This document shows, piece by piece, positions 4,892 to 64,000 of a stretch of DNA of 64,000 nucleotides. The first letter of the stretch is position 1; the number at the start of each line of letters is the position of its first letter. The stretch is from a virus. The position numbers and the translations under genes are program-made. The notes under the pieces were generated by a model. That model saw only the letters and a list, made by a program, of their open reading frames with translations. It searched no databases and was not told where the DNA came from. The stretch lies in the IMG/VR virus record IMGVR_UViG_3300045988_118131; one strand, given 5' to 3'.

Positions 4892-7800
4892 TTAAAATAA
4901 ATCTTTAGCTGCTGTATGAATGTAATCTGGATTTGGGAAATAATCATATAATGAATACTTCAACGGTCTTATGGCTCCAAAATTATCTATAAATACTCTA
5001 GCTATATTGAGCTTTCCATCAAACACATCCTCAATATCACTTAAAACATTTTCAGTAAAGTTTATAGCTGGTGCATTAAATTCGGTTGCTCCAGATAATA
5101 CTTTTTTAACATTAAGTTCATTACTTACATCTCTAGCCATCCCTATAAATGTTCTTTGAGATGGTGATAATTCTCCAACTTTTGTATCTCCTAAAGCTAG
5201 TTTTAACAAGTATTGTATCAACCAGTATAAGAAAAGTTCTTGTCCAGCAATTAGAGCATTACGTTTCTTTATAGGGTCTCTCCAAGCTGCTGTAGCTTTA
5301 TCTCTGTATGTAGGATCAAATATAGCTCTTGCTGGATTGTATATTAGATCTAATACAGACCAGAAGATGCCTTCTGTTACAGAGCCTTCCCATTTTATGT
5401 AAGGATGATCCGTAACTTCAGTAGTAATTTCTAATAGCTTACCATTTTCATCATACTTCATGTACAGTAACTCATTATTTTCATTTCTAGCTTGAGAAAA
5501 GTGCCCTCCAGCATATGTGCCTCTAGTTAAAAACCATTGATTTTTCTTAGCTGTAAGATACGTTTTAAAGTGTCCTATTATAGTAAATATTCCTGTTTTA
5601 AACACCTCAGATTTATTATCATTATCCATATAACCAAATAATGTATCAGCCTCCTGCTTAATTCCTGCAATTTCTAAATCAGTAAATGCTTGTGGTAGAT
5701 TGTCCTCTTTGGTTATAGCTCTTCTTACTCCATTGGAGTCTGTAATTTGATACCCTTGAGATATAAATCTATTCATCATGGCTTCATATAAAGCTCTTTG
5801 ATATTGAAATTCTTTTAGTAAATTCTTGGGAACTGAATTTTCAGAATCTTTATATTTAGCATATACATTGAACCTATTATCCTTTTTCCAATTATACATT
5901 AGTTGGTTGTCCTTAAACTCGTATGCATCATAGCATCCATATTTTTTCATGTATCCTACTAAAATAGTCATTCTATTTAGATAATCAGGAGCACGATTGC
6001 ACCAGAATAAGTTGCCATTAAATCTCAGAGGATCTCCTTGGAAATAGTTTAATCTAGATACTAGCTCGTCCTCAGACATGTTAGATATACCAAAAACCAT
6101 ATTTAGAGCCTCCAGCTTAGTCACTGTAGTAACTTGGTGTAAAGCATCTCCTCAAACGGTAGTATAAGCAGAGAGCATATCCTTTAAACCAATTTTATCC
6201 TTATCAAAGGCTGAATTAGCAATAGCTCTAGTATATAGTGTAAAGAATGATACCGCGGTTTCCTTTACGCCAGATTTTCAGTTAAATCCTAATATAGCTC
6301 CTGATGCCCATCTCTTTGCATGTGACATAATAGTATATAATTGTTTATTTTCAGACGATATTAATGACTCATCGAATACAGTTGTTTTGATATGGTCTGT
6401 AATAAATTGAATAGTTTTGTTTATATCTTTATCACTAGATATAAAGGAAGCGAGTCTTAAAATAGTTAGATTAGCTTGAATAGCTGGAAGTATTTTATTA
6501 TATTCATTTTCTCGTATATAAGCTAAATGCATAGTATCGCCAACTATCTCCAAATTAGTTTCAAATATAGACATAGGATCATCAAATCTTCCCTTGTCTT
6601 TTCTAGCTTTATCAACAAGTTGTGCTCTAGCCTCTAAAGTATTAGATGTAGCAAATATATTATACATCTCCATCATTAGATCGTCATTCAATTCTGTATA
6701 TGATTTTATTGAATTTTCCTCTACTACGTTCTTTCTATTAATTAACTCGTCAGTAACATTAGCATTAACGGCTCTCGATAAAGATATAATGTTTTTACTA
6801 TTGGCAATTCTAGAAGCTGTGCTAGCCTTCATAATACCTGCCATTAGCCATTGTCCACTTTTTCTCAAAGCCTCCTCAGACTGTCCTGGAAACCTTAAAG
6901 AATTTATGTCCTTTAAATAAAATTCCAAGAACTCTCTCTGAGCTGGAGTTAGAGATGTGTCAGACTTTGGATCTTTTAATAAAAAATACTTCTTGCCATT
7001 TTCCGAGGTGTCGAATAAATTTTTATAATCATATTCAGACATATTAAAGAATTTGTTAGAAGCTAGACCGTTACTCGCTTTGAATTTTTTATACCTGTCT
7101 ACAACTGCCATTTTGTAATTAAAATACTCAGAACGAATGTTATACCTGGTAGAATCTAAAGCCCTTTTAATAGGTTTAAACAATTCAATAGTATCAGAAG
7201 TATTTAGTTTAGTTGAATTAAGAAACTGTCTATTCAATCCCCCGTCTTTCCAAATATCTCCGAACCATTCAGCTAGTTTGGGAGCGTTATATGGATCCAC
7301 TTCTATTCCAGATAGATTAATAATAGCTTTAGCTACTTCAGCATACAGGGCTGATTCTAATGTTTCGTTAGGTTTATAGCCTCCTTCATAGAAGAAAAAC
7401 TTGTTTTTTAAATCTTCTAATAAATTATACAATTGTTTAAGCTGAGAATTTCTTTCCTCCGGAGTTAAATCGGTAGATGGTTTAGGTACTTCTTTTATCT
7501 TTCCTCTAATAGCATTACTGAGTCTTGTGGCACTCTTCAAACTGCTAATCCCTGTTTGTATTTCGTTATATACTTGATAAAATTTAATTAAAGGGTCTAA
7601 AAGTACTAAACTAGTGTTGTTCACTCCAGTTTTTCTTCGCAGCATATTATAATTGTACAACACCTTGTCTAATGAGTTTGGTTTTAAAGCTTTTTTAGCG
7701 TCAACGTTAACTACTGCAAGTTCATCAACTTCATAATCTTTTAAGTCGCCTTGAAGGATATTATCAGCTATTTCCAATAATTTTATTAACTCTATATTCC

Positions 7801-9505
7801 CTCTAGTAGCTGGCAGTATGTTAGAATCAGTTTCTACCGACTGGTCTGCATAAAAACTTCCCAATAGAGATCTGCCCTTTGGCAATTTAACCTGCATAGA
7901 CGGATCTAATCCTGTCATAGAAACAAAATCTACTTTCTTAGACCTATCATTTACAAGCATTATCACCCCCATATCAATAAGATCATCATTATCTACAACT
8001 TTCCATCCTTTCTCATAGGTATATTTAGAAAATAGTGTGTTTATATACGATTGATGTTCAGCATTTCTTAAATTAGGAAATAAAAAGTTGGCAGAAATAT
8101 ATTCATCACTGCTTCTGTTAACTATTTCCAGAGCCTCTTTAAAAGATTGCTTTATTTCTGATACTTGCTCACTTATTCTCTGATCTATAGTAGACAGATA
8201 ATCATCTAAGAATACACTAAGCTCTTCTTCTGTATTAAATATTTCATATTTATTACCTATAGAATCATAAAACTGGAATTTGCCTTCAGAATTTCTTTTT
8301 GTTTTTTCTATTAATGTCTGTTTTGCAACGTTAGAAAATTTATTACCATTTAAACATTCTACAGGAAAATACTTAGATAAAGTAGAAGAAACGGTTTCTT
8401 TTAGTTTTGATGTATTTAACTCTGTAATGCTATTTACTGGAAAAGCATCATTAAATTTCTTACTTAACTTAAAATTGTTCCTAATAGATACGTTTTCTGG
8501 ATTATAAACCGAAACACTGGAAACTATCTCGGCATTGTCCTCAATTTTTAGCTCTTCGTTCTCTTCCGATATTCCAGATTTATCTATATTTATTTCAATA
8601 GGAATTACAGATGTTAAAATCTTATTAGAATTAATTCCCTTATTATGCAGTAGTCTTCTATAAGTCTCTAACTGAAATCTCATAAAGTTTTTCTTATCAA
8701 TATCCCAGTTATCCATCTTGTCTTTAGACACTTTTACATCATATATATGTACAGAGCCATCTTTCTTTACTACAACAATATCCACCTTACCTCTTACTGT
8801 TGTATTAGAATCAACTGCCCCATCTATAACATATTCTGTATAAATTTTCTCTACATCGGGAGTATTTAGCTGAAATTTTAAGTCAGTCATTTGTTGGATA
8901 AAACTTTCCAGAGCTTCGTCAGTCATTCCTTTTAAAGTGGCATCTTTAGCAAAACCCTTAGTCCAAGAGGTGTTAAGTTTTATCCTAGCTTTAGATGGTG
9001 TTAACTTGACTTTAGTGTTGAAAATAATATCCGTTACGAAGTGTAATCCTCTACCTAATTGCTGAGAATAGCTCCAAGATGCAAATTCCTTATCAATTTC
9101 TTTGTTGGCTTGTTCGTCAGTTATTGTCGGATTCTCAGCCCTTATATCAGATACTTTTTTCTTTCTATAGTCATCCCTATTAATAGGATTAGCTAACTCA
9201 ACATTAGCAATCCAATCAAGTACTGAGATAGCTCCGTCAGTATAAGATATATTATCATCTATATTTAAATACTCAGCTAAAGCCTTAGCTCTTACTTCTT
9301 TCAACCTTTCTTTAGCCTCCTCTTGAGCAGAGTCTAATACATCTAGTGTGGTTTTATCAAAAGAAAATAAAGTATTGGAATTTTTTACTTCTTTAAGAAA
9401 CGACTGAAAGTTATCTAATAGCATATTATCTAAATCAGTCTCATTCTTTATCTTAATTTCTTTTCCATTTATTTTTAATGTATAGACACAATTTTTCATT
9501 AACAT
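4892..9505 (-). CDS. giant virion-associated protein (1537 aa with TGA read as sense)
   Basis: Track ORFs 4892..6124 and 6278..9505 share a frame. The interval between them contains only TGA at 6152-6154 and 6278-6280. ATG at 9503-9505, terminal TAA. The N-terminal region has a possible PD-(D/E)xK pattern (VDIVVV...IYDVKVSK). Confidence 0.7.
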
Positions 9506-12375
9506 TCCTCCCTAAGTGTATTATTTTTCATTAATTCCTTTTTTAAAGCGGCTAATTTGGTTAACTGTTGAAACTTATTTTCCTTAAATATTTCAGAATA
9601 TGTAAAGGAATCTTCAGTAGAAGATAGCATGTTTCTTATAGTATCATTCATAAGTCGCATAACTTCAGAATCATTCAAATCTTCCGGTAATTTAAATATT
9701 TTTTTAACCACAGTCTCCCAATCTATTGAGTCCATAGTGTCTGTTACTGCAGAAGAATCTATATCAGTGAAGTAACTAGAAAATAAATGAACCAAATACT
9801 CCTCTTTTAAATCATTTTGAGTAAGTCCCTGATATGTAGAAGAAAAGCCTTCTGGAATTTCATTTATTTTTGACAGCAAGATATTATAAGCGTTTGTATC
9901 TTGAGTTCTCAAAGCTGCTAATATAATATGAGATAACTCATGTACATATGAATCTATAGTACTTAAATCTTCATTCATATATATTATTCCATCATGAGTA
10001 AACGCTTTAAAGTTTTTTAGGTCTTTTATAGAAAACCCTAGGTCAGCTTTGGTGGATTTTCTATTAAACCATATTACTGGAATTGTTCCTTTGGTCAATC
10101 TAGTATTTATTCTTTCTACTAAGTCCTGAGTAGTATAGTATTTAAAATCTCCAGTAACTGGGTGAACTACGGATCTCTCTGAATAATCAGAAGGACTAAG
10201 TCTAAATAGAAGTCTTTTCTTATTATCTCTTAGTAGCTTATTGAGACTTTCTACAGGTATTCCACTATCCTTTGAAAATTCTTCAATTCTAGGTTTAAAG
10301 AAATCCTCCTTACTCAAATTAGAAAAAGTGTCCTCTTCTACACTATAAAAATGTTCTCTCCCATTTGTATCTCTATACCAAATAATTCCATCCTCATTGA
10401 CTGGAGTAGCTACTTTCATGCCGTTTTGCAGTCCTTGTTCTACGTATTCCAGATTAACAGTAGTAATAGTAGGTTCAGATGAATCTAAGTCTATACATTT
10501 TATACTATTTTCATCTATTCTTTCTACAAATATATAATGTCTTCCAGTTTTGAGAATTAAATCTCCTTGTTCTATACTAGCGTTGTTTTCAGACAAATAA
10601 TACTGATGATATAATGGAATTTTCTCAGTTAAAGTTACTCCTACCGTAATGTTGGGATTTTTTTCATTATATAATTTAAATGATTCTCCTATAGAATATT
10701 GATTCATAGACTCATTAGACGAGGTCACCGGGACTAATGTAGGCTTTGTAGCAATACTTGAAAATACATTTGATTGATAACTCAATGGTTTGTACTTTGC
10801 AGCCAGAGGCTTCACAAATACAGGCATAATAGACGTATATTTGGATAGAACATTATCCATGTTGCTGTCACTTCCAGCATACAAATTGACTTGATAACCA
10901 AATCTATTTGCCTGTTTTACATATTCTATATCATTGGCAGATCCGTCTTTAATGGTTAAATAGCTTAAATTTTCTCTGTATAATTTAAATACATTTTCTG
11001 TCTTTGATAAACTAATATTACCCTCAAATTTTAAATTATATAGACCATACTTATTAAGAAGAACTTTCACTTCAGAACTATTATTAAGAGCCATTTCTAG
11101 AGGAATAGTAACAGATTCCTGTCCTCCATCATACGATACATTACTTGCAGAAGAGGACACTATTAAGCTCTTGAAATTAAGTCTGGAGGCAGTATATCTA
11201 ATTTTTATCATACGATTTTGACCAAACCTAGTTCCTGGCTCTATGTCTAGTTTAGATGGGTCAGGAGTGAAGGATAACTCTGACTCAGGTATAGAAATAT
11301 TATCAATTAAAAGTAATTTGCTAGCTTCCATTAACCTATCTTTTATATTATCCTTTTTAATTGTGCTAGAGTTTAGCTTATCATAAACTACTTCTGCTAC
11401 GTCTTTATGCTTAATTAAATACCCTCATAAATCTTTTCTATATATAGTAGTGTCAACTTCTTCTAGCCCAAAAGCCTCTTTAAATTCTTCCTCTGTAGCT
11501 TTTACAGTATAAGAATTTCATAGTCCATTTTTAAAGTTTATAATATCTTTTACACTAACTCCTATAGTTCCATCAGAATTGGTAATTATTGCATTTCTGT
11601 CATCTACCATTATATCAAATAGAGCATTTTCCTGATGTGAACCTGATAGTTTAATTTTATCAGTTAATTTTATTTTCGTATTTATATCCTGATTAATTAG
11701 ACCATTTAAAGAGTCTCTCACTGATTGTTCCAAATTTGGATTTGCAAATAAGTATATTGCTTTATCCATCATAGACAAATCTTTAATATCCTTATATAGT
11801 TCTCCAGAATAATCTTCGATTACTTTTGAAAATTGTTTAAATATCCAACTATTAGGCTCCCTTAACTGATTTAACGTATACACAGTAGAGAGCAGAGATA
11901 ATGCTTCCTCCGGTTGGGATTCTGGGTTTAATATTAGCATAGTTCTATTATTCTTAGTTAATACTCTATTCCTAGCTCCATCCATAAGAATAACATCATA
12001 ATTAGAAGTATTAATAACTCCTCTACTTCCCAGAACATTAGACAGCAACAAAACTTTATCGCTTCTTCTAGAGGCATTAAAATACGAAGCTATATTATAG
12101 ATACTACTATTCCCCGCATAACTATCCAATAGTTTAGAAATCTCTGAATCTGACAAAACTTCTTTATTCAGAATGTTCTTTAACTCAGATGAACTGTTAT
12201 GCTCTCCATTTAAAGAATTAGTTATTTCTTCTAATATACTTATATTACTTTTATCTTTTAGTATATATTTTGAAATAATATCGGGAAAGGAAGCAGTTAA
12301 GTCTGCTTCCTTTGACACGTCGATATTAAAAGTGTACTTCTTTGAACCAACGTTTATTTGAATACAATGTTTCAT
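9499..12375 (-). CDS. large virion-associated protein with HExxH zincin-like motif (958 aa with TGA as sense)
   Basis: ORFs 9499..11331 and 11518..12375 are in one frame, interrupted only by TGA at 11425-11427 and 11518-11520. HELSH is encoded at 9928-9942. The ATG at 12373-12375 overlaps the upstream TAA (TAATG). Confidence 0.65.
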
Positions 12376-15300
12376 TAGTCACAATTAAGTTTAAATTCAA
12401 CTAAGCCACTAGAAATAAATTTTGCTAAATCAGCTGCAACTTGAATACTCTTAGCTTTAGTAAAAGCATTTACACTGTCAGTAGTAAACAATAGTGTATT
12501 TATATTGGCAATTGGATCAGCATCTATATCTAGTTTAGTTTTGTTATAGAATATTTCTGTAACTCCCTCTAAAGACTTTTTCTTTTCTAATCCCATAACC
12601 TCTTGATCTAGCGGTATAAGACGCAATACTAAGTCTTTAATATCATAGTTAATTGCAGAATCTGAATCTTGTTTGGATAACTGACTTATATATTTCATGT
12701 ATTTAGACACCATTCTGTTCGGATTACTTAAATCTTCCTTAAACAAATTAGTGAATGAGTAACTACTATTTGAGTTTTTATTCATCAATAAATTATACAA
12801 GAATAGAGCGTCCCCAAATGTTAAGCCATTAGATATAGAAGTTCATGAATATAATTTACTATAATCAATAGATATATCAGAAAGTCTAGTCTCATTTATA
12901 TCTCGACTCATAGTACTCATATCAATATCTAGGGCGCACATAGTGTAAGGAACTCTTAAGTCATTTTGGAAATTCTTTACAGTTATATTTTTAGCAAAGT
13001 TATCATTTCTGGTTCTAAACAAATTTATCAAATATTCTTCCATCCAATTTTTGAACGTAAGTCTATTGTCTAAATTATCAAAATTTATTATATAATCCTC
13101 TGCTGAATCTAAATGGATAGGATTTCCTTCAACGTATTCAGTTGTTACTCCAGGTATAGTTATAGGAGCAACAGTTTTGAAATAATCGTTGATTATACAA
13201 TCAGTCAAAAATCTATTAATCTTATTTGTAATTTTAGGGGTAAGTCCTCCTTTTATAACCCCTAAAGATTGCAGTTCTCTATTTATGTTTATTATATTAG
13301 CTCTTCTAACAGTTAAAGAATCTAGAACAGTATTATTTGTAGTAAAGGTTTTTAACATTTCTCCAAAGTGAGGAACAGTTAATATAGCATCTAATATATT
13401 GACAAACGGGCTCTTATATTTATACCAATGTTTAAAAAATTCTTGAGTTTCTTTGTTGTTAACAAACTCATTTAAATCAAAAGGTTTATAAGCATATTGA
13501 TCATTAATCAAATGATTAAGTTCTACGTTAGTAAAGTATTTTTCTAACTCGGAGTATATTGCCTCTTCACTTTCGCTTAATTCCTGTCCTTTTTTCAACT
13601 TATCAAAGACTCTGAATTCCTCGTTAGTAAATTGCAAGGTTCTAGCAATACTATTAGTTAGGCTAGATAAATAATTTACCTGTTCATATAACTGAGTTCT
13701 GATACCCTGGTTTAATGATGATAATCTTCCTAACAAGGTTAATTCATTAGCACCTTTTCTTATATTGACAATGTTATCTATACTTTGTTCTAATTCTTCT
13801 CTAGGCATTCCCTTTAGTATCTTATTTATTTGATTATCTCTTTTAACACATTCATTTAAAAAGCGGTTGAATAAGATCTTAATATTGTCTTTAGAACTAA
13901 TAAATGTTTCCTGAGCTTCACTTTCGAATAACTCTAGATTTGCATCTTCATCTATTTCATCCAAAAATGATTGATACTCTAACTCTTCAATATCCCTTAT
14001 CTTCTTACTTGATATAGAAGCATTTAATACAGCATTAGGAGTAATAAGATATTCTCTTAAGAACTCTTTAAAGGAATCTATATTTTCTATAAATTCTTTA
14101 GCTATTTCAGCTTCTAATAAATCATTAGACAATTCTTTTAGATTATCGTGTTTATTTTTAAATTCTACCCAAGCATTCCTAAAAGAGTTTATATATTTCT
14201 CTGGAACATATCGTCCTAGTTTCGGTCCTTTTAGATAATAATTGATAGAGTAGTCAATATTATTGTCAGCTTCTCCAGAAACAAAGATATTACTTTTTGC
14301 CTTTTCTTTTATTAGACTCATTATAGGAGAGGTCATAAACTTTGCAGAATCGGCAAATGTAGCCCCTCTAAATAATAAATATATGTACATACCCATTAAG
14401 TCTGGAGTTGCATTAATCTTTTCTAGTACTAGCTCTTTAGCATTATCAGTAGCCAAACTTAACAATACTGATATAGATAGAAATACGTCTTCTTGCGCTC
14501 CAATCTTTTCTAGTATTTGTCTTAGAGTTGCATCTCCTTCAATAGGTACATCAAGTACAGAAATCTTATTCCCATTCTCGTCTAATTCATATTCCCCATT
14601 TTCATCTACTATAAAAGAATTAGACAAATTATCATAGTTTACATTAGGAATAATGTTTAAATATCCTCCCTTTAGATCTAATCCAGATATATCTACAATA
14701 GGCTTGCCCTTTATTTCATTTATTGTGTCAAGCCATTTTTGGATAGTCCAATCCCTTTGATTATATAATTTACTATGGACATATGTTAAAGTATTAGAAT
14801 ATACCTTAATACCAGTAGCAGCTATACCAATTCCGTCTTTACCAATACTATTCTGGAATTGGGCGATTGCTTTTGCTGCAGGATTATTATTGTTTATATA
14901 TTTGCTAAAGCTCTCTGCATGTTCAGCAGCTTTTTGTCCGTCTTCTATAGAGATAGGGGATGTCTGGGATACTATGTTAGCATAGTTAGTTCCAACTTCT
15001 CACATTTCAGCAAATACTTTGTTTTTTATTCCTTCCTGGATTCTATATTCATTATCAATATTATATAAATTATGGTAATCTATCACTGTTCTAGCTGAGT
15101 CCTTATAATTTTCATCAATAGAAATAGATTTTCTGGAAGATGCAACAGATAGTAACTCAACTAAATCTTCTATACTATCTGAGTTTTCATATTTTTCATA
15201 CAGTTCTGTTATATCTACTCCATCCTTAGAAAATTTGATAGGTTTACCAGTAGGTAAAGGTAGTCTTAATGATTTTCTAAATGTGTTTATATCAGAGTAA

Positions 15301-18300
15301 TCAAAATAGGGACTCCAATCTACAAATATACCATCATTGTCTATACTAGCACCTAGTATAAATGCTTTATCAATGTCCAGTTATCTTATATCTTTCGATA
15401 TAAGCCCGACTATATCATCATTCCTTAATCTCACGACTATTGAATGTCTCGCACTTCAGAATCAGCTTTTTGCTGAGCAATAAATTCTTCCTTAGTAAAA
15501 TTGTCTCTAATTTTATATAATAAAGAGGGAACCTGCTCTATATAAGGTTTTACAATTTCTATAAACTTGTAACAGTCTTGTTCGGAACTGGAAGCTATAG
15601 AAAAAGTACCCTTTCCTTCTTTAAATGGTCTAAATTTTATACCCCAAACTTCACTAAAATAATTAATAATAATTTTTACAGTTTCCTCATTTACACAAGT
15701 AGCTATTTTTATGGTATGTTGAATCGAACTACGTTGTTTTGAAGTATTAACATTAATACACCCATCATCCATATACCAAATAGCTAATCCTAAAGGATTT
15801 AACCAATTTAATAATCTTCTAGTAATAGTTTTCTTTGGAATATAAACAGTCCTACGTAATGCTTTAATTGTAGGATTTATTGACATTTGAGAGTATAAAA
15901 CATTTTTTCCAGTATTGTATCCACACGAAGATATGTATTCTTTAATCCCGTTATTTTTAAAATTATATTCATTTAATAATTTTACTTTCCATTCTAAATA
16001 CTCCCTTTGAGCTTCAGAATGAGATAATTTAAATACAAAATTACTAGATATAGTCCCATCTCCTAATAACATACCTATTAACAAACTCTTTTGTTCTTTA
16101 CTAAGTTTTTTAACAATTTTTCTTGCCATTTATCCAATATTTCTAAATTAAACATTAGATAAAAGTTCTTACTCCCTTCCGGGATAGTCTGTGAACCTTC
16201 ATCCTTATAAAATACAAAGATATTAAAAATTTTGTCAACCTAAAAGTCTTTCTTTGTAAAATTTATCTAGGATGCTTGGATGCGGATTGTCCAATCTTAT
16301 CATTTTTTACTATACCTGTAGTGGTTAATTACAGCCATTAGATATATTTCTATTCTAATTTAGTATGATAAGCTCTAAGGAGGTCCCCGTCAATTCACGA
16401 GATTTAACGATTACCACATTTTGTTTCTATTTAAGCAAGCTTCAAGTTAAATTTTAGCTGATAATCGGACCCTTGAAGCCAAAGCTGGTCTGCACATATA
16501 TATACAACGTTAGAATCTGTATTAATGAATCCTTTTATAGTCATATTCATAAACGATTGCATAGACTGTGCAGGAATACGAGCTACTATAAAGTTTAGTG
16601 CCATATTTTTAAACGATATAGCCATTTTATTAGCTTTACGTTCAATGGCTCTTTCTGGAGCTTCGTATACGGCCTCTAAGTCTTCTTTTGAAGGCAATTC
16701 GTCTTCACTAGTTAGCATATTGAGTACAGAATCAGATACTAACTTAGATTTTTCTAATGCACTTGCTACATCGTGTCTGTTTACTCTATATACTACTGTT
16801 TCAGAGAATGTGCTACTATTTTCTAAATAGTTCATATCCTCTGGATTATCTAATACTGCAGCTACTATTCTTTCTCCATATTGCATTTTAGAATATAACT
16901 TAATACCCTTTTTTATAGGATATAACGGCTCTCCATTAGTATCGAGTACAAACACTTTATTATTTAATACTGCAGTTTCTGGATTATATTCTGACCACTT
17001 ACTCTTATCAAAATCTTCTCCTAATATAAGATATAAATTATTAGATGAATTTAATCCTTTTAATGCTGCAAAGGCTTTATCCGGCTTGAAATCGTTTAAG
17101 TCTGAATAATCAAATACATCATATAATTTAGTTTTAAAGAAAGTAACTGGATCTTCTAATATTGAACCTAAGTTGTCCCCTTCCTTTAGCATAAACTTAC
17201 TAGCCCAAACTTTTGGAAGAAGCATTTCGTTGGCTGAATAAGAGATTTCACCATCTAAAGGGATATATTCCAAATTAGATTTAGACCACTCTACCAACGA
17301 CGGATACTCGTGATTATACTGTATTCTTTTACAGTCTGAAATTATCCATTCCTTAATTGTTAAACCTAATTTTTTTAATGATTCCTCATTGCCCTCTATA
17401 GCTTTGTTTATATGATTAATTATGTCCCCTTCATTTCCTGTATATAATGATTCCTTGCTTTTTACAAAGTTTATAAACTTAGAAAGTCTTAATATATCTA
17501 AGTCATTAGGAACATCAGTATTAATTTCTCCAGAACTAGAAACTGACTTAACTTTTCCTAAAGTTCTAGAAAGTGAGTAACTTAGTTTGGAACTATCCAT
17601 ATCAAAACCGTCATAAACCCCTCTTTCTCCTAAATTAAATGTATAATTGTGAGGTCTTAAATTCCTTCCATATTTATTTATCTTCTCTACTTGTCTTCCA
17701 AGTTGTCTATATTTATCTCTTAAATCTTGCAGACTTATATGTTGTCTTCCGTCCTTTAGAGGTTTGAAAGTAACTTGTTTTTCTACCCCATCATCCAAAA
17801 CCCAATCTCCATTTAATACCTGTCCTGGATCTACAAGAGTATTAGGGATGTTATCTATTGGCACTACTCCATTTTTATTCTCATAATCTTCTTTGGTATA
17901 TAATTGAGTATTGCCATTTTCATCAGTATATTCGATAAGTCCAACAACATCGTGTGATGGATTTAATACTGCATTTAATCCAAAGAATTTTCTACGAATA
18001 ATATTTTGGTTTAGGTTATTAGCAAAATCAATGACAAATTTACTAAAAATATTTGGATCGTCAAAAGGAACTAGTATTTCTTTTTCTGCATTATTTTCTA
18101 GTAGATCTTCTTTAATTAATTTAATATACCTAGAAGCTAAATTTTCTGCTGATAAGTCGTCCGTACTAAATGATTGTAACAATTGCTTTCCTAAAGTAAC
18201 AATAAGTTGATTGTTATTGACATTCATAAAAGGCTCTAATCCTTTAGCTATATAAGATCCCAAGTCTCTATACACAGCTAAGGTAGTTTCATAAGAAATA

Positions 18301-47322: not shown

Positions 47323-48001
47323 CTAGAATTTCATTCCATTCATTTTGATTGATGTAGTATGGAACTCTAGCAGCGCTACATAATTTCAGCCATTCTTGAT
47401 AAAGCATTTGGTATTCTTGGAGTATAGCATTATTATGGGATACTAATCCGTCTCTTCTCAATCTAGTCATTGCACAGTATGTAGCTATAGCCAACGCTTC
47501 TTTTTCTGTAATATAAGGTAATCCTTCACTATCTAATACTACTCCTTTGTATAATATATTAATTGTACCATAATCTCTGTCGAAATATAGTTTATCCCCT
47601 ACCCTTTCGTATTTAACATATCTTCCAGAGATGTATAAAGGAGATTGTGTAATTTTTCTAGTTTCTATGTAATTTTCAGTAAACTGAGATGAATAATCCC
47701 CATTTACTGTCTTATTAGTAGTGTATTTTCAATCCTCCCATCCATATGTTACCGCTTCTAATATATCACAATTACATGGAAGTGACATGGAAAATCCTTC
47801 AACCTTTTGTCCACATCCGTTTCTACAGGGAGGAGTATCACAAATTAAATTTGCTGAATATCTATATAATTTAGTAAATTTATTACCTATATGTTTTCAC
47901 GCTATAAGTCCAATTTCTTCAAAGTCTTCAGGAGTTAATTCTACCCCATATAACTGCTTTATCAAAGGATAAGCAGTATAAAATTCATCCATATGTTCCA
48001 T
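47264..48001 (-). CDS. hypothetical structural-module protein (245 aa with TGA as sense)
   Basis: The ATG at 47999-48001 overlaps the upstream TAA. The frame is open through TGA at 47897, 47729 and 47306 to TAA at 47264. It includes track ORF 47306..47494. Confidence 0.5.
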
Positions 48002-53182: not shown

Positions 53183-54271
53183 TTAATCTAAGTCTAAAAT
53201 AGGAATATCACTACCTAAACTTATGGTTTTTTGTTTGTCTGATTTAGATGGAGAACTTTTCTTATTTATTTTAGATTTTTTACCACTTAAAGCATCCTTA
53301 TAGCCTTCTTCATACTTAGTCTGAGAATGTTGTTTAACAACATCAGTCCAGTAATCATTTAGTGCTTTTATAGAATCAGCACCATCTAAAAGGAATCATG
53401 CCATTTTAACTATACTTTCTGGGTCTTTTAAGGCTCTATACATGTAGTTAGTTCCAGTGGCATCAGTTCCTAAAATAAATTCTGCAATGCGTTCTCTGTC
53501 TTCGTCCTCTAAGTCAAACGATTCAATTGTTTTTAAGCCATTGATAGCTTCTATCATAGAATTAGCAAAAGCCTCTTGTGCTTCCTGGTCTTTAGCTTCA
53601 TCAACAAGTTTTTGTTCTTCTATCTTAGCTTCCTCTTTGGCTTTATATCCATCTCTTAATGCTTGTATCTTTTTATTCCATAGAGTCTCGTTAGCTTTCT
53701 CGTGTTCTAAATATTGCTGAGCCTCCTCTTCAGTAATATCTCCAAAATTATACTTTAAATCTAACAAGTATAATTCTTCATCAGATAACTTGTCTACTTC
53801 ATAGTGAGGTTCGCTATTAGCTGCTACAAAATCCTCTATGGCTTTATTACGAACATAATCTAAGTAGTCTTCTACGGATAAGTTATTATCTCTTAAAAGA
53901 CTTATAAATTCTGTCTCTTCAGGTTCAAGTCCATAGTTATCGTCTAAATCTGAAGAGTTTAATATATTGAGTTGCTCTTCTCTAGATAAACTGTTGAAAT
54001 CAACTTCCTGGATATTTCCCTGCTCATCTTCGTACTTAATAGCTGATGGATCTTTTATACCTTTACTTTTTAGTAAAGCAACTAATAGATCATCGTCGTT
54101 ATCTGAATTTTGGTCTGAAGTATCACCTTCGTCCCCTTTATTAGAGTCACCGTCGTCACCGTGATCATCTAAATTATCATCAAGCCCTTCTATATTTACA
54201 GAATCAAGAGCCTGATCATCTGAATCACCGTCTACGGGATCTATGTCTAAATAGTCTAAATCATCGTTCAT
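53183..54271 (-). CDS. acidic, coiled-coil-rich protein (362 aa with TGA as sense), possible scaffolding protein
   Basis: ORF 53396..54271 continues through TGA at 53396-53398 to TAA at 53183. The N-terminus is extremely D/E-rich and the central segments are E/K-rich. It lies immediately upstream of the putative capsid gene. Confidence 0.45.
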
Positions 54272-54724: not shown

Positions 54725-57541
54725 TTAAGTTTTACATGGACTTATCCATCATGTCTTGTTGTGATTATCTCATATGGCTATTATAGTTTCTTCTTTTCCA
54801 GATTGTTGAGAAGTTGAAGTTCCGCTACTTATTCCTCATAGTACCTTATTTCCTCCACCACTTATAGTAACAGTATATCCAGTATTTCTAATAAAATACA
54901 TTTGCCCATCTTCTGGAGACGAGGGCATAGTTAATGTTACATCTCTAATAGCTATAACTATACTATCCATAGTACTTAAAGTAGTAGATTTAGCTATTCT
55001 TCTAGTTCTTAGTCTAAATCCACAAATATCTCCCTTAGCTAAATATAGAGCATGATTTCCAGAAGTAATCAAGTCATCATATGGAATAGCTCCAGTAACA
55101 CTAACATATAATCCAGCATTTCCTCCTGGATAATCTTCTTTTAAATCTCTAGTAACTTCTAATCGTTGAGGAGCTACTAACGAACCACCACTAGTGGCTG
55201 GAATAGTATCTCCTCCCAAGTAAGCTGTAGAACCTACTGAGGAATCAGTAAATTTTATTAAATCAGCAGATAATAACATAGTCTTAGTCTTATCCGCCGA
55301 GGTAGCTTCCATTCTAGTATCTGACAATGCAAACCCTCCTATATTACCTTTATAAGAATATATAGTACCTTTAATATAAGCATTGTTAGCGTACATATTA
55401 CCGTTCTGGTCTACATAGAAAGCTCCACTTTCTATTTTCTCTAGTTCTGTTTTAGACATTAACTTTCCAGGTTGGTTTGGATCAGTAGACGGAGTAATTA
55501 CACCAGCTGAACTTATAGCGATTACTGGAAAGGTGTTCGTAGTATCTGCACCACTATAAACTCTCCCATTCATATAACAATTTTTGCTATTAGACCACAT
55601 CATCGCATTACTAAAATTCCATCCCCCCATATGACCGTTATTAGCAAATAATATTTCTGTAGCCACTGATTCAAAAGATGCTCCAAACCTTTTTCAGTAA
55701 TCGTTCTCTCCAGAAGTAGGAGGAGTTTTACCGCTGAAACTCCCGTTAACGGTTGTCTTACTATAATAATAAGCACCATTATGATATACAACTTCTACTA
55801 AGTCAGGGCTTCCTGTATAAGTAGCTCCTGATTCATAGTTACCTCTAAAATTCATAGCTGGACCTACAGGTCCAGGGTCTCCATCCTTAACTAACCTAGT
55901 ATAAACAGCTGGTGTAGACCAAGTTCACAAAGATTCTCCAACATCTTTAACTCCATTGCTATACCAAACAACTGGTCACCTTTCACTAGGAGCAAGAGCC
56001 GATGCTGACCAGCCACTTGGCACATCGTAAGAAGGACTGGGAGTGCTAGGTGTCCTCTCATCATAGTCATAGAATATAGTTCTAAAGCTAGCCCCATCTT
56101 CTCCATTATCTCCTTTCGAAGTATATAAATTCCAATAATTAGTATTAGTAGGTAATACATTACCATAAACATCCTTTATACAGATATAGGTACTTCCTTC
56201 GTAGGAAACTACGTCCCCTTTATTATATTTTATATTGGAACTCTGTATAAATGGTCCTCTTCAATTTATCATAACTGCGGTAGAGTCTGGATCTTCTTGA
56301 GTTATATATCCTTTTATAAACAATTGCTTTAAATCAGAGTCAAATCTGATGTATGTATTTCCATTACCTATCCTAAAATTACCATTAATCATATCCCAAT
56401 AACAATTTCCAGTTTGATCTTTTATAACTCCAGTAGTTATTGTATTTCCAGCAATTTCGGTAAACCCATACATAGTTTGAAAACTTCTTACTTTAGAAGC
56501 CTTTACTGTAGAGTCGCTAACTCCTCCAGATATTTCACTGCCTCCTTCACTAAGACTAGCTCTAGGAGTATTAAGTACTCCAACTCAGAACATATAATAC
56601 CCATCCTCAGACTCTAAAAGTTTTTGTTCTGTAGACAATAAGAACTCTCCTTGATTACTAGTTTTACTACATTTTGCATACAAGTAGTAAGGCTTTCCAG
56701 GATCTAAACCAGACTGGTCGAAATCTGGAGCAGTAAGTGATCCACTTATGTTATGCAAAACCTCCCAAGTAGCTCCTACCGTATCATCATTATTTTCTAA
56801 TCCTATTGTATTATGAATTAGCAATCCAGGTCTACTTATATCAACAATAAATGCGGCGAATCTATTTTCATCACCTAAGTGATTAGGAGAAAACTTAATA
56901 TTTTCTAAACTAAATTGCTGAGAATTAGTACCAACAATTAATTGAGCTGTATGTACTGCAAGTGGAGTAATTTTCTCAGTAAAATAGTTTCCCTCTGGGT
57001 CAAACATCATATCAAATGTCTCCATTACGTCCTGCCAAGTTCTCTGTGTAAAATCACTTTGGTTCTTTAAAGCATCACGTATTTCATCTAAATTTCCAGT
57101 AATCATATCTTCTAAGTCATTAACATTAAATAATGTGTTTACCCAATAGCCACCTTGTTGTACTAGCAAATCCCCATCTCTAAGGTTAACTAACATTACA
57201 TCTTCTAGTTCTGACAGTTTAGTAACTCCTTCAGAATTGTTGTTATTATTGCCAGCGCCTCCACCTAAAGGGATGAGTGATTTTTCTACTAAGGCATACA
57301 TTCCATCCCCATTTCTTACATAGTAAAATCCAGTTTTAGTTCCAATATCATTAATAGTATCTACTACGTGAATAATAACAGGAGCGTTAATTTTACCATC
57401 CTTTATTAAGTCTATGAAGGAATTTCCTTGCTGTATTTTTACCTTACCCTTAGTTTGTATAACAAAGTCCTTATCTCTAGAACCAGCTATAACTTGCTTA
57501 GTTCCCAGAACGGAATCTGATCTAATTAACTCTTGAGACAT
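54725..57541 (-). CDS. tail fibre or spike-like protein (938 aa with TGA as sense)
   Basis: ORFs 56585..57541, 56261..56473 and 54836..55666 plus the open stretches between them are in one frame. There are eight TGAs (56585, 56261, 55976, 55925, 55694, 54836, 54770, 54749). The composition is Gly/Ser/Thr/Asn/Tyr-rich. The function is inferred. Confidence 0.5.
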
Positions 57542-61499: not shown

Positions 61500-62699
61500 T
61501 TAATAGTTGTTTTGAATTATTTTGTTTAATAATCTATGCTTAGTAGTATATTCTTCCTTACATATAAATTTACTATAATCTGGAGCTATGTCCACTACTT
61601 CATATCATCTTTTAGAAATCATATTAGCATATTTCTTTCTTATATTATAGGATTCGTATTTACCTAAAAACCCATAGTAGCTATTAAGAACGCTTATGAA
61701 ATGCTCAGCTTTTTCTGCTGGATAATATTCATATTTCTCAGCTAGATCGTTGAATTTAAATATAGTTTGATGTAAGTATGCTACTGTCCTGTTTGCAGAA
61801 TATTTAAACTTACCTTTAACTACAGCTCCTATAAATTTACAACCTTTCTTATAATATTGAATGTATAATTTCTTAGGGTGTAAAACTATTTTAAGATTAT
61901 CTTTTAAGTAATTTCTTATTCACGGAACAGAATCTAATAGTAGTTTTTTGTCTTTACTTATTACAAAGAAGTCGTCTACATATCTGCCATAGTATTTGAA
62001 TTTCTCTACCATTAGTTTGTCAAAAGTATTCAAATAAAAATTAGCAAACATTTGACTTGTTAAATTACCAATTGGCAGTCCATAATCTTTGTCTACAGTA
62101 AATAAAGATTTATTAGCTGGCAAATCATCTCACATGAAATCTGGAGATTTTCTAATACAATTGTTTTGAGGGCAATTGTTTACAATTTTTGTTACTAGTT
62201 CTAGTATTATATCAACATCATCTTCTTTATAATTTTCTTTTATAAAAGTTATTAACATTTTCAATAAAGTAGGTTTGTGGATAGACATAAAAAATCCTTG
62301 CAGATCAAATTTAGCAATGTAACAAGGTTGAGTGTAGTTTTCACTACACTCTTTTACTTGTTCATGAAGTCTATTTATTCCGTATAGAGTTCCTTTCTCT
62401 ACTCTACAATTGTAATTGTCTTTTATAAATTCTCTCTCAAATAAGGGTTCTAATCTTAACATAACTAAATGATGTACAACCCTATCTCTGAAATCAGCTG
62501 CAAATACCTCTCTCTTTTTAGGTTTAGTTACTATAAATGCTATACTTCTTCCTATCTCATAAGTTCCATCCATAATATCTTTGTATAGTTTAGCACATTC
62601 TATTTCCCAATTTATTTCAAATTTTAATGCATTACAAGTATTTCTCTTATTTTTTCTGCATTTGTAATAAGCAGAAATTACATCCTCTAAAGCAATCAT
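61500..62699 (-). CDS. DGR reverse transcriptase (399 aa with TGA as sense)
   Basis: ORFs 62130..62699 and 61920..62123 and the open frame down to TAA at 61500 are joined by TGA at 62130, 61920 and 61605. Motifs: FAADFRDRVVHH, LPIGNLTSQMFANFYLN (the DGR-type IGxxxSQ) and YGRYVDDFFVIS (YxDD). Confidence 0.85.
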
Positions 62700-62724
62700 A
62701 CAATATAATTAGGGCACTTAAAGA

Positions 62725-63698: not shown

Positions 63699-63736
63699 AT
63701 TTTACTTATATTGTTTCATTTAATTTCATCTATATT

Positions 63737-64000
63737 TTATAGTACATATCAGGGACGACAGTAGAGGGTGAAGCGCTTACCGCTGCTGATGATGGTACCA
63801 CTATCTCAACTCAATTCCCACGCGTCGTTCGACGAGTACTCCGTTGAAGCCCAATGATAACCTGTAAGCATAGCTGTACCTCCAATTTTACTTAGAGCAC
63901 TATCTACCTGAGATTTATTATTATAAGCTGTTTGTCATTCACCCAAAGCTGGAAGGTATCCTTTTCTATTTTCACCCCCAATATTAATGGACTTCGATCT
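63737..64000 (-). CDS. DGR target protein, C-terminal part (partial; gene continues beyond the window)
   Basis: Translation: ...NRKGYLPALGE[TGA]QTAYNNKSQVDSALSKIGGTAMLTGYHWASTEYSSNDAWELS[TGA]DSGTIISSGKRFTLYCRP[TGA]YVL-TAA. This matches the DUF1566/C-type-lectin-fold pattern of DGR variable proteins (YWSSTE..NAW.VNF.NG....K....VR.V). Confidence 0.8.
63746..63846 (-). repeat. DGR variable repeat (VR)
   Basis: 101 nt at the 3' end of the target gene. It differs from the spliced TR only at 10 adenine-templated positions (for example AAC to GAC, ACC, ATC, AGC or CGC). Confidence 0.9.

What the first reader, a model, noticed from the sequence alone, without database searches (positions are those of the whole stretch)
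4892..64000. Opal (TGA) recoding: about 50 in-frame TGAs stitch fragmented ORFs into long genes that end only in TAA or TAG
I walked the codons between neighbouring minus-strand track ORFs. The neighbours are in the same frame in every case, and the only stops between them are TGA. The positions are: 6152, 6278; 11425, 11518; 12843, 15000; 24139, 24634, 25165; 34244, 34691, 34745, 35219; 36681; 37193, 37619; 38496, 38670, 40098, 40503, 40626, 40710, 41868, 41895; 43852, 45595; 46480, 46660, 46810, 46915; 47306, 47729, 47897; 50030, 50420; 53396; 54749, 54770, 54836, 55694, 55925, 55976, 56261, 56585; 61605, 61920, 62130; 63749, 63806, 63935. Regions with no track ORF at all (46189-46914, 43312-51, 49889-50419) become fully coding. 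All merged genes end in TAA or TAG and often overlap the next ATG as TAATG. Stop-codon recoding, including TGA to Trp, is known in gut phages and crAss-like phages, so the phenomenon is not new. It does change every gene call here: standard-code annotation gives about 40 fragments instead of about 16 genes.
Basis: seen in the sequence. Interest (0 to 1): 0.7.

Follow-up and report, generated by a model that had tools for sequence, protein, structure and literature searches.

The report
TGA read as tryptophan in phage

Summary
All 50 listed positions are in-frame TGAs on the minus strand. Reading TGA as sense turns the fragments into 31 tightly tiled genes, and every one ends in TAA or TAG. There are 47 in-frame TGAs in 18,936 codons and no in-frame TAA or TAG. 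Shuffled sequence gives open runs of at most 184 codons, against 2,785 observed.

The encoded amino acid is tryptophan. In distant relatives the aligned residue is Trp in 268 of 511 cells (background 0.6%) and never Gly. In TGA-recoded relatives the sites are either TGA or TGG. Two solved bacterial DUF192 structures have Trp opposite TGA 36681.

The window is a strain of a ~175-kb Zeta-group crAss-like phage. Its RT, Avd and tRNA features match those published for Lera/ct1yV3. About 32 kb upstream of the window, the same genome encodes a tRNA with anticodon UCA and another with anticodon CUA. Sister lineages use the standard code or reassign TAG.

All of this was published in 2021 and 2025, so the finding is correct but already known. 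One gene model needs correcting: "gene" 12375-15380 is exon 2 of an intron-split 3,096-aa gene.

Two side observations are less ordinary. The UCA tRNA has an atypical shape with a long variable arm. The DGR template repeat is interrupted by a group I intron.

The parts
4892..9505 (-). Gene of 1,537 aa with an N-terminal PD-(D/E)XK nuclease domain. In-frame TGAs at 6152 and 6278. Ends in TAA.
   Evidence: Pfam PF12705 on the N-terminal part. The ~90%-identical relative has TGA and TGG at the two sites.
9499..12375 (-). Gene of 958 aa. In-frame TGAs at 11425 and 11518. Ends in TAA. Its start overlaps the upstream stop as TAATG.
   Evidence: The close relative has TGA and TGG at the two sites.
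12375..15377 (-). Exon 2 of a giant gene of about 3,096 aa; it is not a gene of its own. In-frame TGAs at 12843 and 15000. Ends in TAA.
   Evidence: There is no ATG in its first 125 codons. In relative L049 the two parts form one uninterrupted 3,098-codon frame, with junction ...GSDY|DIDKAF.... The close relative has TGG at both sites.
15378..16460 (-). A 1,083-nt insertion splitting the giant gene. It is group I intron-like RNA plus a LAGLIDADG homing endonuclease ORF (15437-16129, no TGA).
   Evidence: phrog_11023 LAGLIDADG, 2e-21. Rfam RF00028 at 15386-15507, 30 bits, E 2.7e-5, below the gathering score. The insertion is precisely absent from the 99%-identical strain and from L049. It is present at the same place in the standard-code relative MT835470.
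16461..22751 (-). Exon 1 of the giant gene (about 2,097 codons). It has 19 TGG and no TGA.
   Evidence: 0 of 19 Trp codons are TGA, against 26% overall (binomial p = 0.006).
22744..31089 (-). Gene of 2,781 aa with a superfamily 1 helicase-like domain. In-frame TGAs at 24139, 24634 and 25165.
   Evidence: Pfam Viral_helicase1 and AAA_19. The close relatives have TGG at all three sites.
32981..35776 (-). Gene of 931 aa. In-frame TGAs at 34244, 34691, 34745 and 35219.
   Evidence: The close relative has TGG at three sites and TGA at one.
36261..36830 (-). DUF192-family gene of 189 aa. In-frame TGA at 36681.
   Evidence: Pfam PF02643, 2.9e-22, with the match spanning the TGA. Solved bacterial structures 3pjy and 3m7a both have Trp in the WMKNT/WMRNT motif opposite the TGA. 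Two distant relatives have W there.
36830..38383 (-). Gene of 517 aa with no TGG at all. In-frame TGAs at 37193 and 37619.
38376..42947 (-). Virion structural protein of 1,523 aa. Eight in-frame TGAs: 38496, 38670, 40098, 40503, 40626, 40710, 41868 and 41895.
   Evidence: phrog_15100. Distant relatives have W at 38670, 40098, 40626, 40710 and 41868 (14 of 14 at 41868).
42949..46188 (-). Gene of 1,079 aa. In-frame TGAs at 43852 and 45595.
   Evidence: The same-species strain has TGG at both sites.
46195..47322 (-). Gene of 375 aa. All four of its Trp codons are TGA (46480, 46660, 46810, 46915) and it has no TGG.
   Evidence: Relatives have W in 33/34, 32/34 and 20/34 cells at three of the sites. 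Use of TGA only: binomial p = 0.004.
47264..48001 (-). Gene of 245 aa, resembling tail ring protein 1. In-frame TGAs at 47306, 47729 and 47897.
   Evidence: Relatives have W in 36/36, 35/36 and 33/36 cells. Pfam CrAss_Ring_1 scores 25.6 bits, just below its cut-off of 27.
49889..50818 (-). Gene of 309 aa. In-frame TGAs at 50030 and 50420.
   Evidence: At 50030 relatives have F in 38 of 38 cells. At 50420 they have W, F, E or N. The close relatives have TGA or TGG.
53183..54271 (-). Gene of 362 aa just downstream of the capsid gene. In-frame TGA at 53396.
   Evidence: Distant relatives have W in 44 of 44 cells.
54725..57541 (-). Tail-fibre-like protein of 938 aa. Eight in-frame TGAs: 54749, 54770, 54836, 55694, 55925, 55976, 56261 and 56585.
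   Evidence: phrog_15074 (1.5e-54) and tail-fibre PHROGs, with matches spanning TGAs. The close relatives have mostly TGA or TGG.
61500..62699 (-). DGR reverse transcriptase of 399 aa. In-frame TGAs at 61605, 61920 and 62130.
   Evidence: phrog_1423 RT, 6.8e-80, matching residues 7-370 across all three TGAs. PDB 8ub7, 6.6e-25. The same three TGAs occur in 10 independent assemblies.
63737..64000 (-). 3' end of the DGR target (tail-fibre) gene, which runs off the window. In-frame TGAs at 63749, 63806 and 63935; the first two lie inside the variable repeat.
   Evidence: The gene continues as a 721-aa ORF with 4 TGAs in L060.
122..3305 (+). End of the forward (replication/early) gene block. ORFs 122-415, 412-1089 and 2805-3305 end in TGA. 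An in-frame TAA or TAG follows 3, 1 and 10 codons later.
   Evidence: The homologue of 2805-3305 in standard-code relative MT835470 ends at the position of the TGA. This suggests TGA still acts as a stop here, or is code-neutral.

Best explanation
The window is about one third of the genome of a ~175-kb Zeta-group crAss-like phage from the human gut. In its long leftward block of virion, transcription and DGR genes, TGA is a sense codon for tryptophan. It supplies about a quarter of all Trp codons, and termination uses only TAA and TAG.

The most likely decoder is a phage-encoded tRNA with anticodon UCA. It sits at the head of the same leftward block, about 32 kb upstream of the window's right end. 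It would compete with the host's release factor 2 once it is expressed.

The forward (replication) block still ends genes in TGA with a nearby backup stop, so the genome is compatible with the host's standard code early in infection and needs the suppressor later.

Shown here: TGA is in frame, conserved, not an error, and evolutionarily interchangeable with TGG. Also shown: a UCA-anticodon tRNA exists in this genome and is invariant across strains. Inferred: that this tRNA is charged with Trp, that the host uses the standard code, and that the arrangement has a timing or regulatory role.
For: TGA is sense: the coding frame holds 47 TGA, 0 TAA and 0 TAG in 18,936 codons, and open frames reach 2,785 codons against at most 184 in shuffles. 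Family matches run across TGAs: RT at 6.8e-80 and DUF192 at 2.9e-22.

The amino acid is Trp. In distant relatives, mostly standard-code or TAG-recoded, the aligned residue is W in 268 of 511 cells. The next most common are F (47) and Y (21). G occurs 0 times, against background frequencies of 0.63% for W and 5.8% for G. In ~85-98%-identical TGA-recoded relatives the sites are TGA 28, TGG 29 and other 6. Reciprocally, their in-frame stops face window TGA 24, TGG 21 and other 6. Against a same-species strain, 44 TGAs are shared and all 7 differences are TGA<->TGG. PDB structures 3pjy and 3m7a have W opposite TGA 36681.

Decoder: a tRNA with anticodon UCA lies at L097 545-640 (contig IMGVR_UViG_7000000317_000001, about 32.3 kb), next to tRNA-Thr, a CUA-anticodon tRNA and tRNA-Asn. 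It is 100% identical over 96 nt in 12 contigs, while the adjacent tRNA-Thr and the flanks vary. It has A1-U72 and G73. From my own knowledge, these are identity elements of E. coli tRNA-Trp.

Dual code: 3 of 11 forward-block ORFs end in TGA with a backup stop within 1-10 codons, and one homologue ends at exactly that point.

Lineage: sister lineages use the standard code or reassign TAG, as published for the Zeta group (PMC7886860; PMC12386605).
Against: The UCA tRNA is not Trp-like in shape. It is 96 nt long, with a long variable arm, a 5-bp D stem and a 6-bp anticodon stem. Its best Rfam match is tRNA-Sec at 34 bits, below the gathering score of 47. From my own knowledge, bacterial tRNAs of this class with G73 are normally charged by seryl-tRNA synthetase.

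Only about 100 kb of the ~175-kb genome could be read, so another Trp-type suppressor, a release factor or a TrpRS gene in the forward block cannot be excluded. No peptide evidence is available.

At some sites relatives carry non-aromatic residues, for example V at 45595, N/K at 46810 and K/Q at 41895.
Confidence: 0.85

Rival explanations
1. The phage infects a host that itself uses genetic code 4 (for example a Mycoplasma-like bacterium) and simply follows the host's code. No phage-driven recoding would be involved.
For: TGA=Trp is the code of Mycoplasma and Spiroplasma (own knowledge; also stated in bioRxiv 10.1101/2021.08.26.457843). The window has a low G+C content of 31.6%.
Against: The genome carries its own strictly conserved UCA tRNA. 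Forward-block genes end in TGA, and one homologue ends at the same point. Relatives at 53-72% capsid identity use the standard code or reassign TAG, which is hard to reconcile with following a host code. Published host predictions for Zeta phages are Bacteroidales and Firmicutes genera, not Mycoplasma-like bacteria (PMC12386605, Table 1); that these hosts use the standard code is from my own knowledge.
Confidence: 0.04
2. TGA encodes glycine (code 25, as in Gracilibacteria and Absconditabacteria and their phages) or selenocysteine.
For: Code-25 phages exist in human microbiomes. The UCA tRNA's best Rfam match is the tRNA-Sec family.
Against: Gly is aligned at 0 of 511 cells in distant relatives, against a 5.8% background, and Cys at 1. 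Changes between close relatives are almost all TGA<->TGG. From my own knowledge, fifty sites each needing a downstream SECIS hairpin is implausible, and Sec sites normally align with Cys. The tRNA-Sec score is below the gathering threshold.
Confidence: 0.01
3. TGA is read by the long-variable-arm UCA tRNA as serine, or ambiguously as Ser and Trp. The sites would be evolutionary Trp positions but translated with a different or mixed residue.
For: The tRNA has class II architecture with G73, which by my own knowledge resembles seryl-tRNA synthetase substrates. It is the only UCA tRNA seen in the parts of the genome that were read.
Against: Sites that are invariant Trp in 36-44 relatives (47306, 53396, 46915) and in solved DUF192 structures would be replaced by Ser in essential virion proteins. 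No TGA<->Ser-codon exchange is seen between close relatives (0 Ser among the 63 cells in close relatives; 1 of 51 in the reciprocal test). The forward-block tRNA cluster was only partly read and may hold a canonical decoder.
Confidence: 0.06
4. The TGAs are real stops. The region would be full of pseudogenes, split genes or sequencing errors, or would be expressed by low-level readthrough.
For: Standard-code annotation does produce many short ORFs. One public assembly was annotated that way: L117 has an RT fragment of 189 aa.
Against: TAA and TAG never occur in frame while TGA occurs 50 times. The fragments always share a frame. The TGAs are conserved across at least 12 independent assemblies. 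The phage is abundant: the exact Avd protein is found in 134 blocks of public assemblies. Essential genes are affected.
Confidence: 0.01

Closest known systems
Zeta-group crAss-like phages with opal suppression, especially Lera (PV725988) and ct1yV3, the proposed genus Echekvirus (PMC12386605, 2025)
   Same: Genome size is about 175-180 kb and G+C about 32%. A forward replication/tRNA block faces a reverse virion block that contains the DGR. TGA=Trp was inferred there from homologues. Both a TCA and a CTA suppressor tRNA are present. The RT is exactly 399 aa and an Avd gene is present. LAGLIDADG and other homing endonucleases occur (compared).
   Different: No direct sequence comparison was possible, because Lera and ct1yV3 are not in the searchable collections. 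Membership of that genus is therefore inferred from shared features only. The paper reports 'several TRs' and mentions no intron in the TR. It gives the isotype of its TCA tRNA as 'Trp or Arg', whereas this genome's TCA tRNA has a long variable arm.
Zeta group of crAss-like phages as defined by Yutin et al. 2021 (PMC7886860)
   Same: Genomes are 145-192 kb. Different branches reassign TGA, reassign TAG or use the standard code. Reassignment is mostly in late genes. The large transcription-block genes are interrupted by self-splicing introns with LAGLIDADG endonucleases. All of these features were reproduced here. Five metagenome contigs carrying the same tRNA have accessions beginning with 'O' (OKSD, OHUR, OGPS, OBAR, OGMN), the same style as the cMAG accessions named in that paper.
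   Different: Nothing essential. This window is one more strain.
Stop-codon recoding in gut phages (Borges et al., bioRxiv 10.1101/2021.08.26.457843; Ivanova et al. 2014, cited from my own knowledge)
   Same: [quoted passage not shown] A suppressor tRNA is encoded by the phage. Recoded stops are concentrated in structural and late genes, while the early block is compatible with the standard code.
   Different: No phage RF1 or TrpRS 'code-change module' was seen in the ~100 kb read here. The suppressor tRNA sits at the head of the virion block rather than next to a lysis cassette.
Genetic code 4 of Mycoplasma, Spiroplasma and mitochondria
   Same: UGA is read as Trp by a tRNA with anticodon UCA.
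   Different: There it is a genome-wide, host-level code with loss of RF2. Here it is confined to part of a viral genome, and TGA still ends some genes.

Membership tests
Phage stop-codon recoding, TGA to Trp (code 4) | In-frame TGAs in long, conserved genes that end only in TAA or TAG | tested here: met
   The coding frame holds 47 TGA (plus 3 in the partial gene), 0 TAA and 0 TAG. All 31 genes end in TAA or TAG.
Phage stop-codon recoding, TGA to Trp (code 4) | TGA positions align with Trp in homologues translated with the standard code | tested here: met
   W in 268 of 511 cells, against a 0.63% background. TGA<->TGG exchange in close relatives. W in PDB 3pjy and 3m7a.
Phage stop-codon recoding, TGA to Trp (code 4) | The genome encodes a suppressor tRNA with anticodon UCA | tested here: met
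   L097 545-640, on the same contig as the window's sister strain. It is identical in 12 contigs. It lies outside the window.
Phage stop-codon recoding, TGA to Trp (code 4) | The suppressor tRNA is of Trp identity, charged by TrpRS | tested here: inconclusive
   A1-U72, G73, C35 and A36 fit Trp. The long variable arm, the 5-bp D stem and a best Rfam match to tRNA-Sec (34 bits against a gathering score of 47) do not.
Phage stop-codon recoding, TGA to Trp (code 4) | The host uses the standard code, and peptides span the recoded stops | not testable with these tools
   The host is known only from published predictions for related phages (PMC12386605, Table 1). No proteomics is available.
Code 25 (TGA to Gly) | TGA positions align with Gly | tested here: not met
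   G in 0 of 511 cells in distant relatives and 1 of 63 in close relatives.
Selenocysteine recoding | UGA aligns with Cys/Sec in homologues, and a bona fide tRNA-Sec is present | tested here: not met
   C in 1 of 511 cells. The tRNA-Sec model score is below the gathering threshold. SECIS elements were not searched.
Crassvirales, Zeta group | crAss-type major capsid protein | tested here: met
   Pfam PF23898 Crass_capsid, 47.3 bits against a cut-off of 27. 22-24% identity to the major head proteins of classified crAss-like phages.
Crassvirales, Zeta group | Genome of 145-192 kb, mixed code usage among close branches, and intron-split giant transcription-block genes | tested here: met
   Contig lengths are 145-197 kb. 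Three codes occur among relatives. A group I intron with LAGLIDADG endonuclease splits the 3,096-aa gene.
Crassvirales, Zeta group | Phylogenetic placement by TerL, portal and MCP trees | not tested
   No tree was built, and reference Zeta genomes are not in the searchable collections.

The most novel reading that the evidence does not exclude
The only UGA decoder seen in this genome is a structurally non-canonical tRNA. It is 96 nt long, with a long variable arm, Sec- or Ser-like stems, and Trp-like A1-U72/G73, and it is 100% invariant in 12 independent contigs. If this molecule really inserts Trp, then host TrpRS (or an unseen phage enzyme) charges a class II-shaped tRNA. That would be an undescribed route to opal-to-Trp reassignment, and could explain why standard tools miss the suppressor in many opal-recoded Zeta genomes. 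Alternatively, decoding could be ambiguous between Ser and Trp.
Probability: 0.2. Interest if true: 0.55.

Novelty: already known. Interest (0 to 1): 0.25.

Why it matters
For annotation, the recoding matters a great deal. Table 11 shatters 16 genes into dozens of fragments and hides the RT, the tail fibres, the virion proteins and a 3,096-aa intron-split gene. One public assembly of this phage is visibly mis-called in this way (L117).

Scientifically, the recoding adds nothing new. TGA-to-Trp reassignment, phage-encoded UCA and CUA suppressor tRNAs and code switching between sister lineages have been published for this same phage group (PMC7886860; PMC12386605; bioRxiv 10.1101/2021.08.26.457843).

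Two things found on the way may be worth more follow-up than the recoding. The first is the odd architecture of the conserved UCA tRNA. The second is a natural group I intron inside a DGR template repeat, together with a strain in which the template locus looks overwritten by spliced, adenine-mutagenised cDNA.

Tried and rejected
- Megablast of 22 kb of the window against GenBank phage records found nothing. Only tblastn with the capsid protein found two unannotated relatives.
- PHROGs gave no hit for most recoded proteins.
- No tRNA was found in the window, in 47 capsid-centred loci, or in the standard-code relative MT835470. The TAG-recoded relative MT835492 has 5 tRNAs but no suppressor was detected.
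- Walking the contig with a DNA pattern from the end of a locus only returned the same locus, which wasted one scan. Walking with proteins worked, and the tRNA cluster was reached on the third step.
- I searched the metagenome collection with the anticodon masked, hoping to find the same tRNA body with a CCA or Ser anticodon. All 10 hits had TCA, so the tRNA's ancestry remains unknown.
- An exact 60-mer of the tRNA is absent from 185,579 species genomes.
- The Lera supplementary table lists tRNA lengths but not anticodons, so its TCA tRNA could not be compared.
- Whole-window Rfam at gathering thresholds returned nothing, although the TR intron scores 71.5 bits when the region is searched alone. 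The speed filters lose it.
- A fuzzy-regex search for the TR halves misbehaved and was replaced by alignments.
- Code 25, selenocysteine, pseudogenes and assembly error were considered and rejected on the residue tables and on conservation across assemblies.

Full report
**Observation.** I re-derived the reading frames independently by scanning stop-to-stop with only TAA and TAG as stops. This gave a head-to-tail tiling of the minus strand from 4892 to the window end. There are 47 in 15 complete genes, plus 63749, 63806 and 63935 in the gene that runs off the window; that gene's stop is at 63737-63739.

Making TGA sense raises minus-strand coverage by open frames of at least 150 aa from 0.738 to 0.873. 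The control reassignments reach only 0.754 (TAG) and 0.795 (TAA). In the 31 genes (18,936 codons) the coding frame contains 47 TGA, 0 TAA and 0 TAG, whereas all three triplets occur hundreds of times in the other two frames. In 100 dinucleotide-preserving shuffles the longest TAA/TAG-free run averages 127 codons and never exceeds 184. The observed runs are 2,785, 2,116, 1,539 and 1,528 codons. All genes end in TAA (23) or TAG (8), and four junctions are TAATG.

**Not errors or pseudogenes.** The window is a strain of the species represented by IMG/VR contig IMGVR_UViG_7000000317_000001 (175,639 bp). Identity is 98.5-99.8% over most of the overlap, with one 5.4-kb segment at 81%. That independent assembly shares 44 of the 47 TGAs. 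Every one of the 7 differences between the two strains at such sites is TGA<->TGG. The three TGAs of the reverse transcriptase gene are present in 10 further assemblies from different samples.

**Which amino acid.** I masked the TGA codons as X and aligned the proteins by tblastn to related loci. Relatives around the capsid gene use three different codes. The window, L002 and L036 reassign TGA. L003, L004 and GenBank MT835470 are standard. L015, L016, L041, L043-L047 and MT835492 reassign TAG. The non-TGA relatives therefore serve as clean controls.

At the window's TGA sites they carry W in 268 of 511 aligned cells, followed by F (47) and Y (21), and G in none. The background frequencies in the same alignments are 0.63% for W and 5.8% for G. 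Several sites are invariant Trp: 47306 (36/36), 53396 (44/44) and 41868 (14/14). In the TGA-recoded relatives the same sites are TGA (28), TGG (29) or other (6). Reciprocally, their in-frame stops face window TGA (24), TGG (21) or other (6).

An independent check comes from outside phages. Gene 36261-36830 is a DUF192 protein (Pfam 2.9e-22). Both solved bacterial DUF192 structures (3pjy, 3m7a) have Trp in the conserved WMKNT/WMRNT motif opposite TGA 36681. TGA therefore stands for Trp. Gly (code 25) and Sec/Cys are excluded by the residue tables.

**What the genome is.** The 470-aa product of 51747-53159 matches Pfam Crass_capsid above its cut-off and is 22-24% identical to the major head proteins of classified crAss-like phages. 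Its closer relatives are 145-197-kb viral contigs from human gut metagenomes. This matches the Zeta group of crAss-like phages of Yutin et al. 2021. They describe 145-192-kb genomes, branches that reassign TGA or TAG or use the standard code, reassignment mostly in late genes, and LAGLIDADG-bearing introns in the giant transcription-block genes (PMC7886860).

A 2025 paper on Zeta phages describes phage Lera and ct1yV3. Their features are opal suppression with Trp inferred from homologues, suppressor tRNAs with anticodons TCA and CTA, a 399-aa RT with Avd, and a forward replication/tRNA block facing a reverse virion block (PMC12386605). The present genome shows the same combination, as the following paragraphs describe. 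I could not compare sequences directly, because those genomes are not in the searchable collections.

**How it most likely works.** No tRNA is in the window. I walked rightwards along the sister-strain contig. At about 32.3 kb, at the head of the same leftward gene block, I found a cluster of four tRNAs: one with anticodon UCA, tRNA-Thr(UGU), one with anticodon CUA, and tRNA-Asn.

The UCA tRNA is 100% identical over 96 nt in 12 contigs, although only 24 of those nucleotides were fixed by the search pattern. The neighbouring tRNA-Thr and the flanks differ between contigs. A phage-encoded opal suppressor is therefore present and under strong constraint. That it supplies Trp at the 50 sites is an inference.

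The plus-strand block at 122-4759 is the end of the forward replication block. Three of its 11 ORFs end in TGA, each followed by TAA or TAG within 1-10 codons. The homologue of one of them in the standard-code relative ends at the same point. TGA therefore still behaves as a stop, or is code-neutral, in that block. This fits the published model in which early genes are readable with the host code and late genes need the suppressor (bioRxiv 10.1101/2021.08.26.457843).

TGA use is uneven among late genes. Exon 1 of the giant gene has 0 of 19 Trp codons as TGA (p = 0.006), and the capsid gene has 0 of 5. Gene 46195-47322 has 4 of 4. Genes that end in TAG tend to have an in-frame TAA shortly after (median 2 codons, against 7 for TAA-terminated genes). 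This agrees with what was reported for Lera, which also carries an apparently unused amber suppressor.

**An unresolved point.** The UCA tRNA is not shaped like a tRNA-Trp. ARAGORN, RNAfold and Infernal agree on several features: a 7-bp acceptor stem starting A1-U72, discriminator G73, four nucleotides between the acceptor and D stems, a D stem of 4-5 bp (4 in ARAGORN's drawing, 5 in the RNAfold and Infernal folds), a 6-bp anticodon stem, and a long variable arm of about 24 nt. Its best Rfam match is tRNA-Sec at 34 bits, below the gathering score of 47. From my own knowledge, A1-U72, G73, C35 and A36 are tRNA-Trp identity elements in E. coli, whereas a long variable arm with G73 is what seryl-tRNA synthetase recognises.

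The comparative data argue strongly for Trp at the protein level. No Ser codon is exchanged with TGA between close relatives. However, I read only part of the forward-block tRNA cluster. A canonical decoder, a release factor or a TrpRS may lie in the ~75 kb I could not reach.

The frame 12375-15380 has no ATG for 125 codons. In the ~90%-identical relative L049 it is fused in frame to the upstream 2,106-aa frame, giving one 3,098-codon gene. In the window the two parts are separated by a 1,083-nt insertion (15378-16460). The insertion carries a LAGLIDADG homing endonuclease (phrog_11023, 2e-21) and a weak group I intron signal (RF00028, 30 bits). It is precisely absent from the 99%-identical sister strain and present at the same site in MT835470. 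This is a mobile group I intron, and TGA 15000 lies in exon 2.

**Side finding: a DGR with an intron in its template.** The right end of the window holds a canonical DGR on the minus strand. Its parts are:
- the target gene, with its variable repeat (VR) at 63846-63746;
- bAvd at 63660-63313 (Pfam PF22296);
- the template repeat (TR);
- the RT at 62699-61500.

The TR is in two halves, 63121-63072 and 62775-62725. They are separated by 296 nt that match the Rfam group I intron model at 71.5 bits (gathering score 50, E 2.5e-18). The 5' splice site follows the U of a U-G pair in P1, and the intron ends in G. Spliced in silico, the 101-nt TR is colinear with the VR. It shows 10 mismatches, all at TR adenines, and none at the 67 other positions.

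Ten other assemblies that encode the identical Avd were fetched. Nine have the same intron. Their VRs all differ, mostly at TR-adenine positions on both sides of the intron site. One locus (L119) has no intron, and its TR core is almost free of adenines. Against the spliced TR it has 29 mismatches at A, 2 elsewhere and a 1-nt deletion. Its flanks are TR-specific and it is not a copy of its own VR. It looks as if the TR locus itself was overwritten by mutagenised cDNA made from spliced RNA.

A full-text search found only the artificial td-intron tag used experimentally in the Bordetella phage TR (PMC5703328). The 2025 Zeta paper reports 'several TRs' in Lera and ct1yV3 without mentioning an intron. 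This side finding seems more novel than the recoding, but it is outside the finding I was given.

**Verdict.** It is TGA-to-Trp reassignment in the late gene block of a Zeta-group crAss-like phage with a phage-encoded UCA tRNA, as already published for this group. Interest is low for the recoding as such. The atypical suppressor tRNA and the intron-containing DGR template are the items worth a further look.

Noticed in passing
window 62725-63121 (minus strand); intron 62776-63071; VR 63746-63846: The DGR template repeat is split by a 296-nt group I intron (Rfam RF00028, 71.5 bits against a gathering score of 50). The in-silico spliced TR is colinear with the VR, with 10 mismatches, all at TR adenines. 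Nine of 10 other assemblies carry the same intron, and their VRs vary on both sides of the splice site. I found no description of a natural intron in a DGR TR; only the artificial td-intron tag has been reported.
   Followed up: yes
L119 3349-3664 (Logan SRR33789863_18707), equivalent to window 62700-63312: In one strain the TR locus has no intron and its core is nearly adenine-free. Against the spliced TR it has 29 A-to-N differences, 2 others and a 1-nt deletion. Its flanks are TR-specific and it is not identical to its own VR. It looks like the TR was itself overwritten by mutagenised cDNA from spliced RNA, which would disable the DGR.
   Followed up: partly
window 15378-16460 (minus strand): A mobile group I intron with a LAGLIDADG homing endonuclease (ORF 15437-16129) splits a 3,096-aa gene into 16461-22751 and 12375-15377. 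It is absent from the 99%-identical sister strain and from L049, and present in the standard-code relative MT835470.
   Followed up: yes
L097 545-640 (= L098 5819-5914), about 32 kb beyond the window's right end on the sister-strain contig: The tRNA with anticodon UCA is 96 nt long, with a long variable arm, a 5-bp D stem, a 6-bp anticodon stem, A1-U72 and G73. Its best Rfam match is tRNA-Sec, below threshold. It is 100% identical in 12 contigs. Its shape does not fit a tRNA-Trp, although the comparative data say TGA = Trp.
   Followed up: partly
L097 1451-1523, and window genes ending in TAG (15437, 35816, 36261, 48737, 51747, 58193, 58962, 59433): The genome also encodes a tRNA with anticodon CUA (an amber suppressor), although TAG is never in frame in the window. 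TAG-terminated genes have an in-frame TAA a median of 2 codons later, against 7 for TAA-terminated genes. The sample is small.
   Followed up: partly
window 122-415, 412-1089, 2805-3305 (plus strand): Three of 11 forward-block ORFs end in TGA with a backup TAA or TAG 1-10 codons later. One homologue in a standard-code relative ends at the same point. TGA seems to remain a stop, or to be code-neutral, in this block.
   Followed up: partly
window 37493-42919: This segment covers most of the 517-aa gene (36830-38383) and nearly all of the 1,523-aa virion protein gene. It is only 81% identical to the sister strain, while the flanks are 98.5-99.8% identical. This suggests recombinational exchange of a virion module.
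   Followed up: no
L098 6994-7080; L099 11952-12227 and 12408-12480: The tRNA-Asn(GUU) of this strain is 87 nt long with an extra arm, which is unusual for tRNA-Asn. In relatives a 73-nt tRNA-Asn is preceded by a 276-nt element that ARAGORN calls a tmRNA (tag peptide AERTNTSFSIAA). This may be a false call or another inserted element.
   Followed up: no
sister-strain contig about 25.4-31.1 kb (L097/L098), outside the window: A sub-block of genes in the opposite orientation lies inside the reverse block. It includes an 882-aa ORF with 8 TGAs and a 261-aa ORF with 5 TGAs, so the recoding is not tied to one strand.
   Followed up: no
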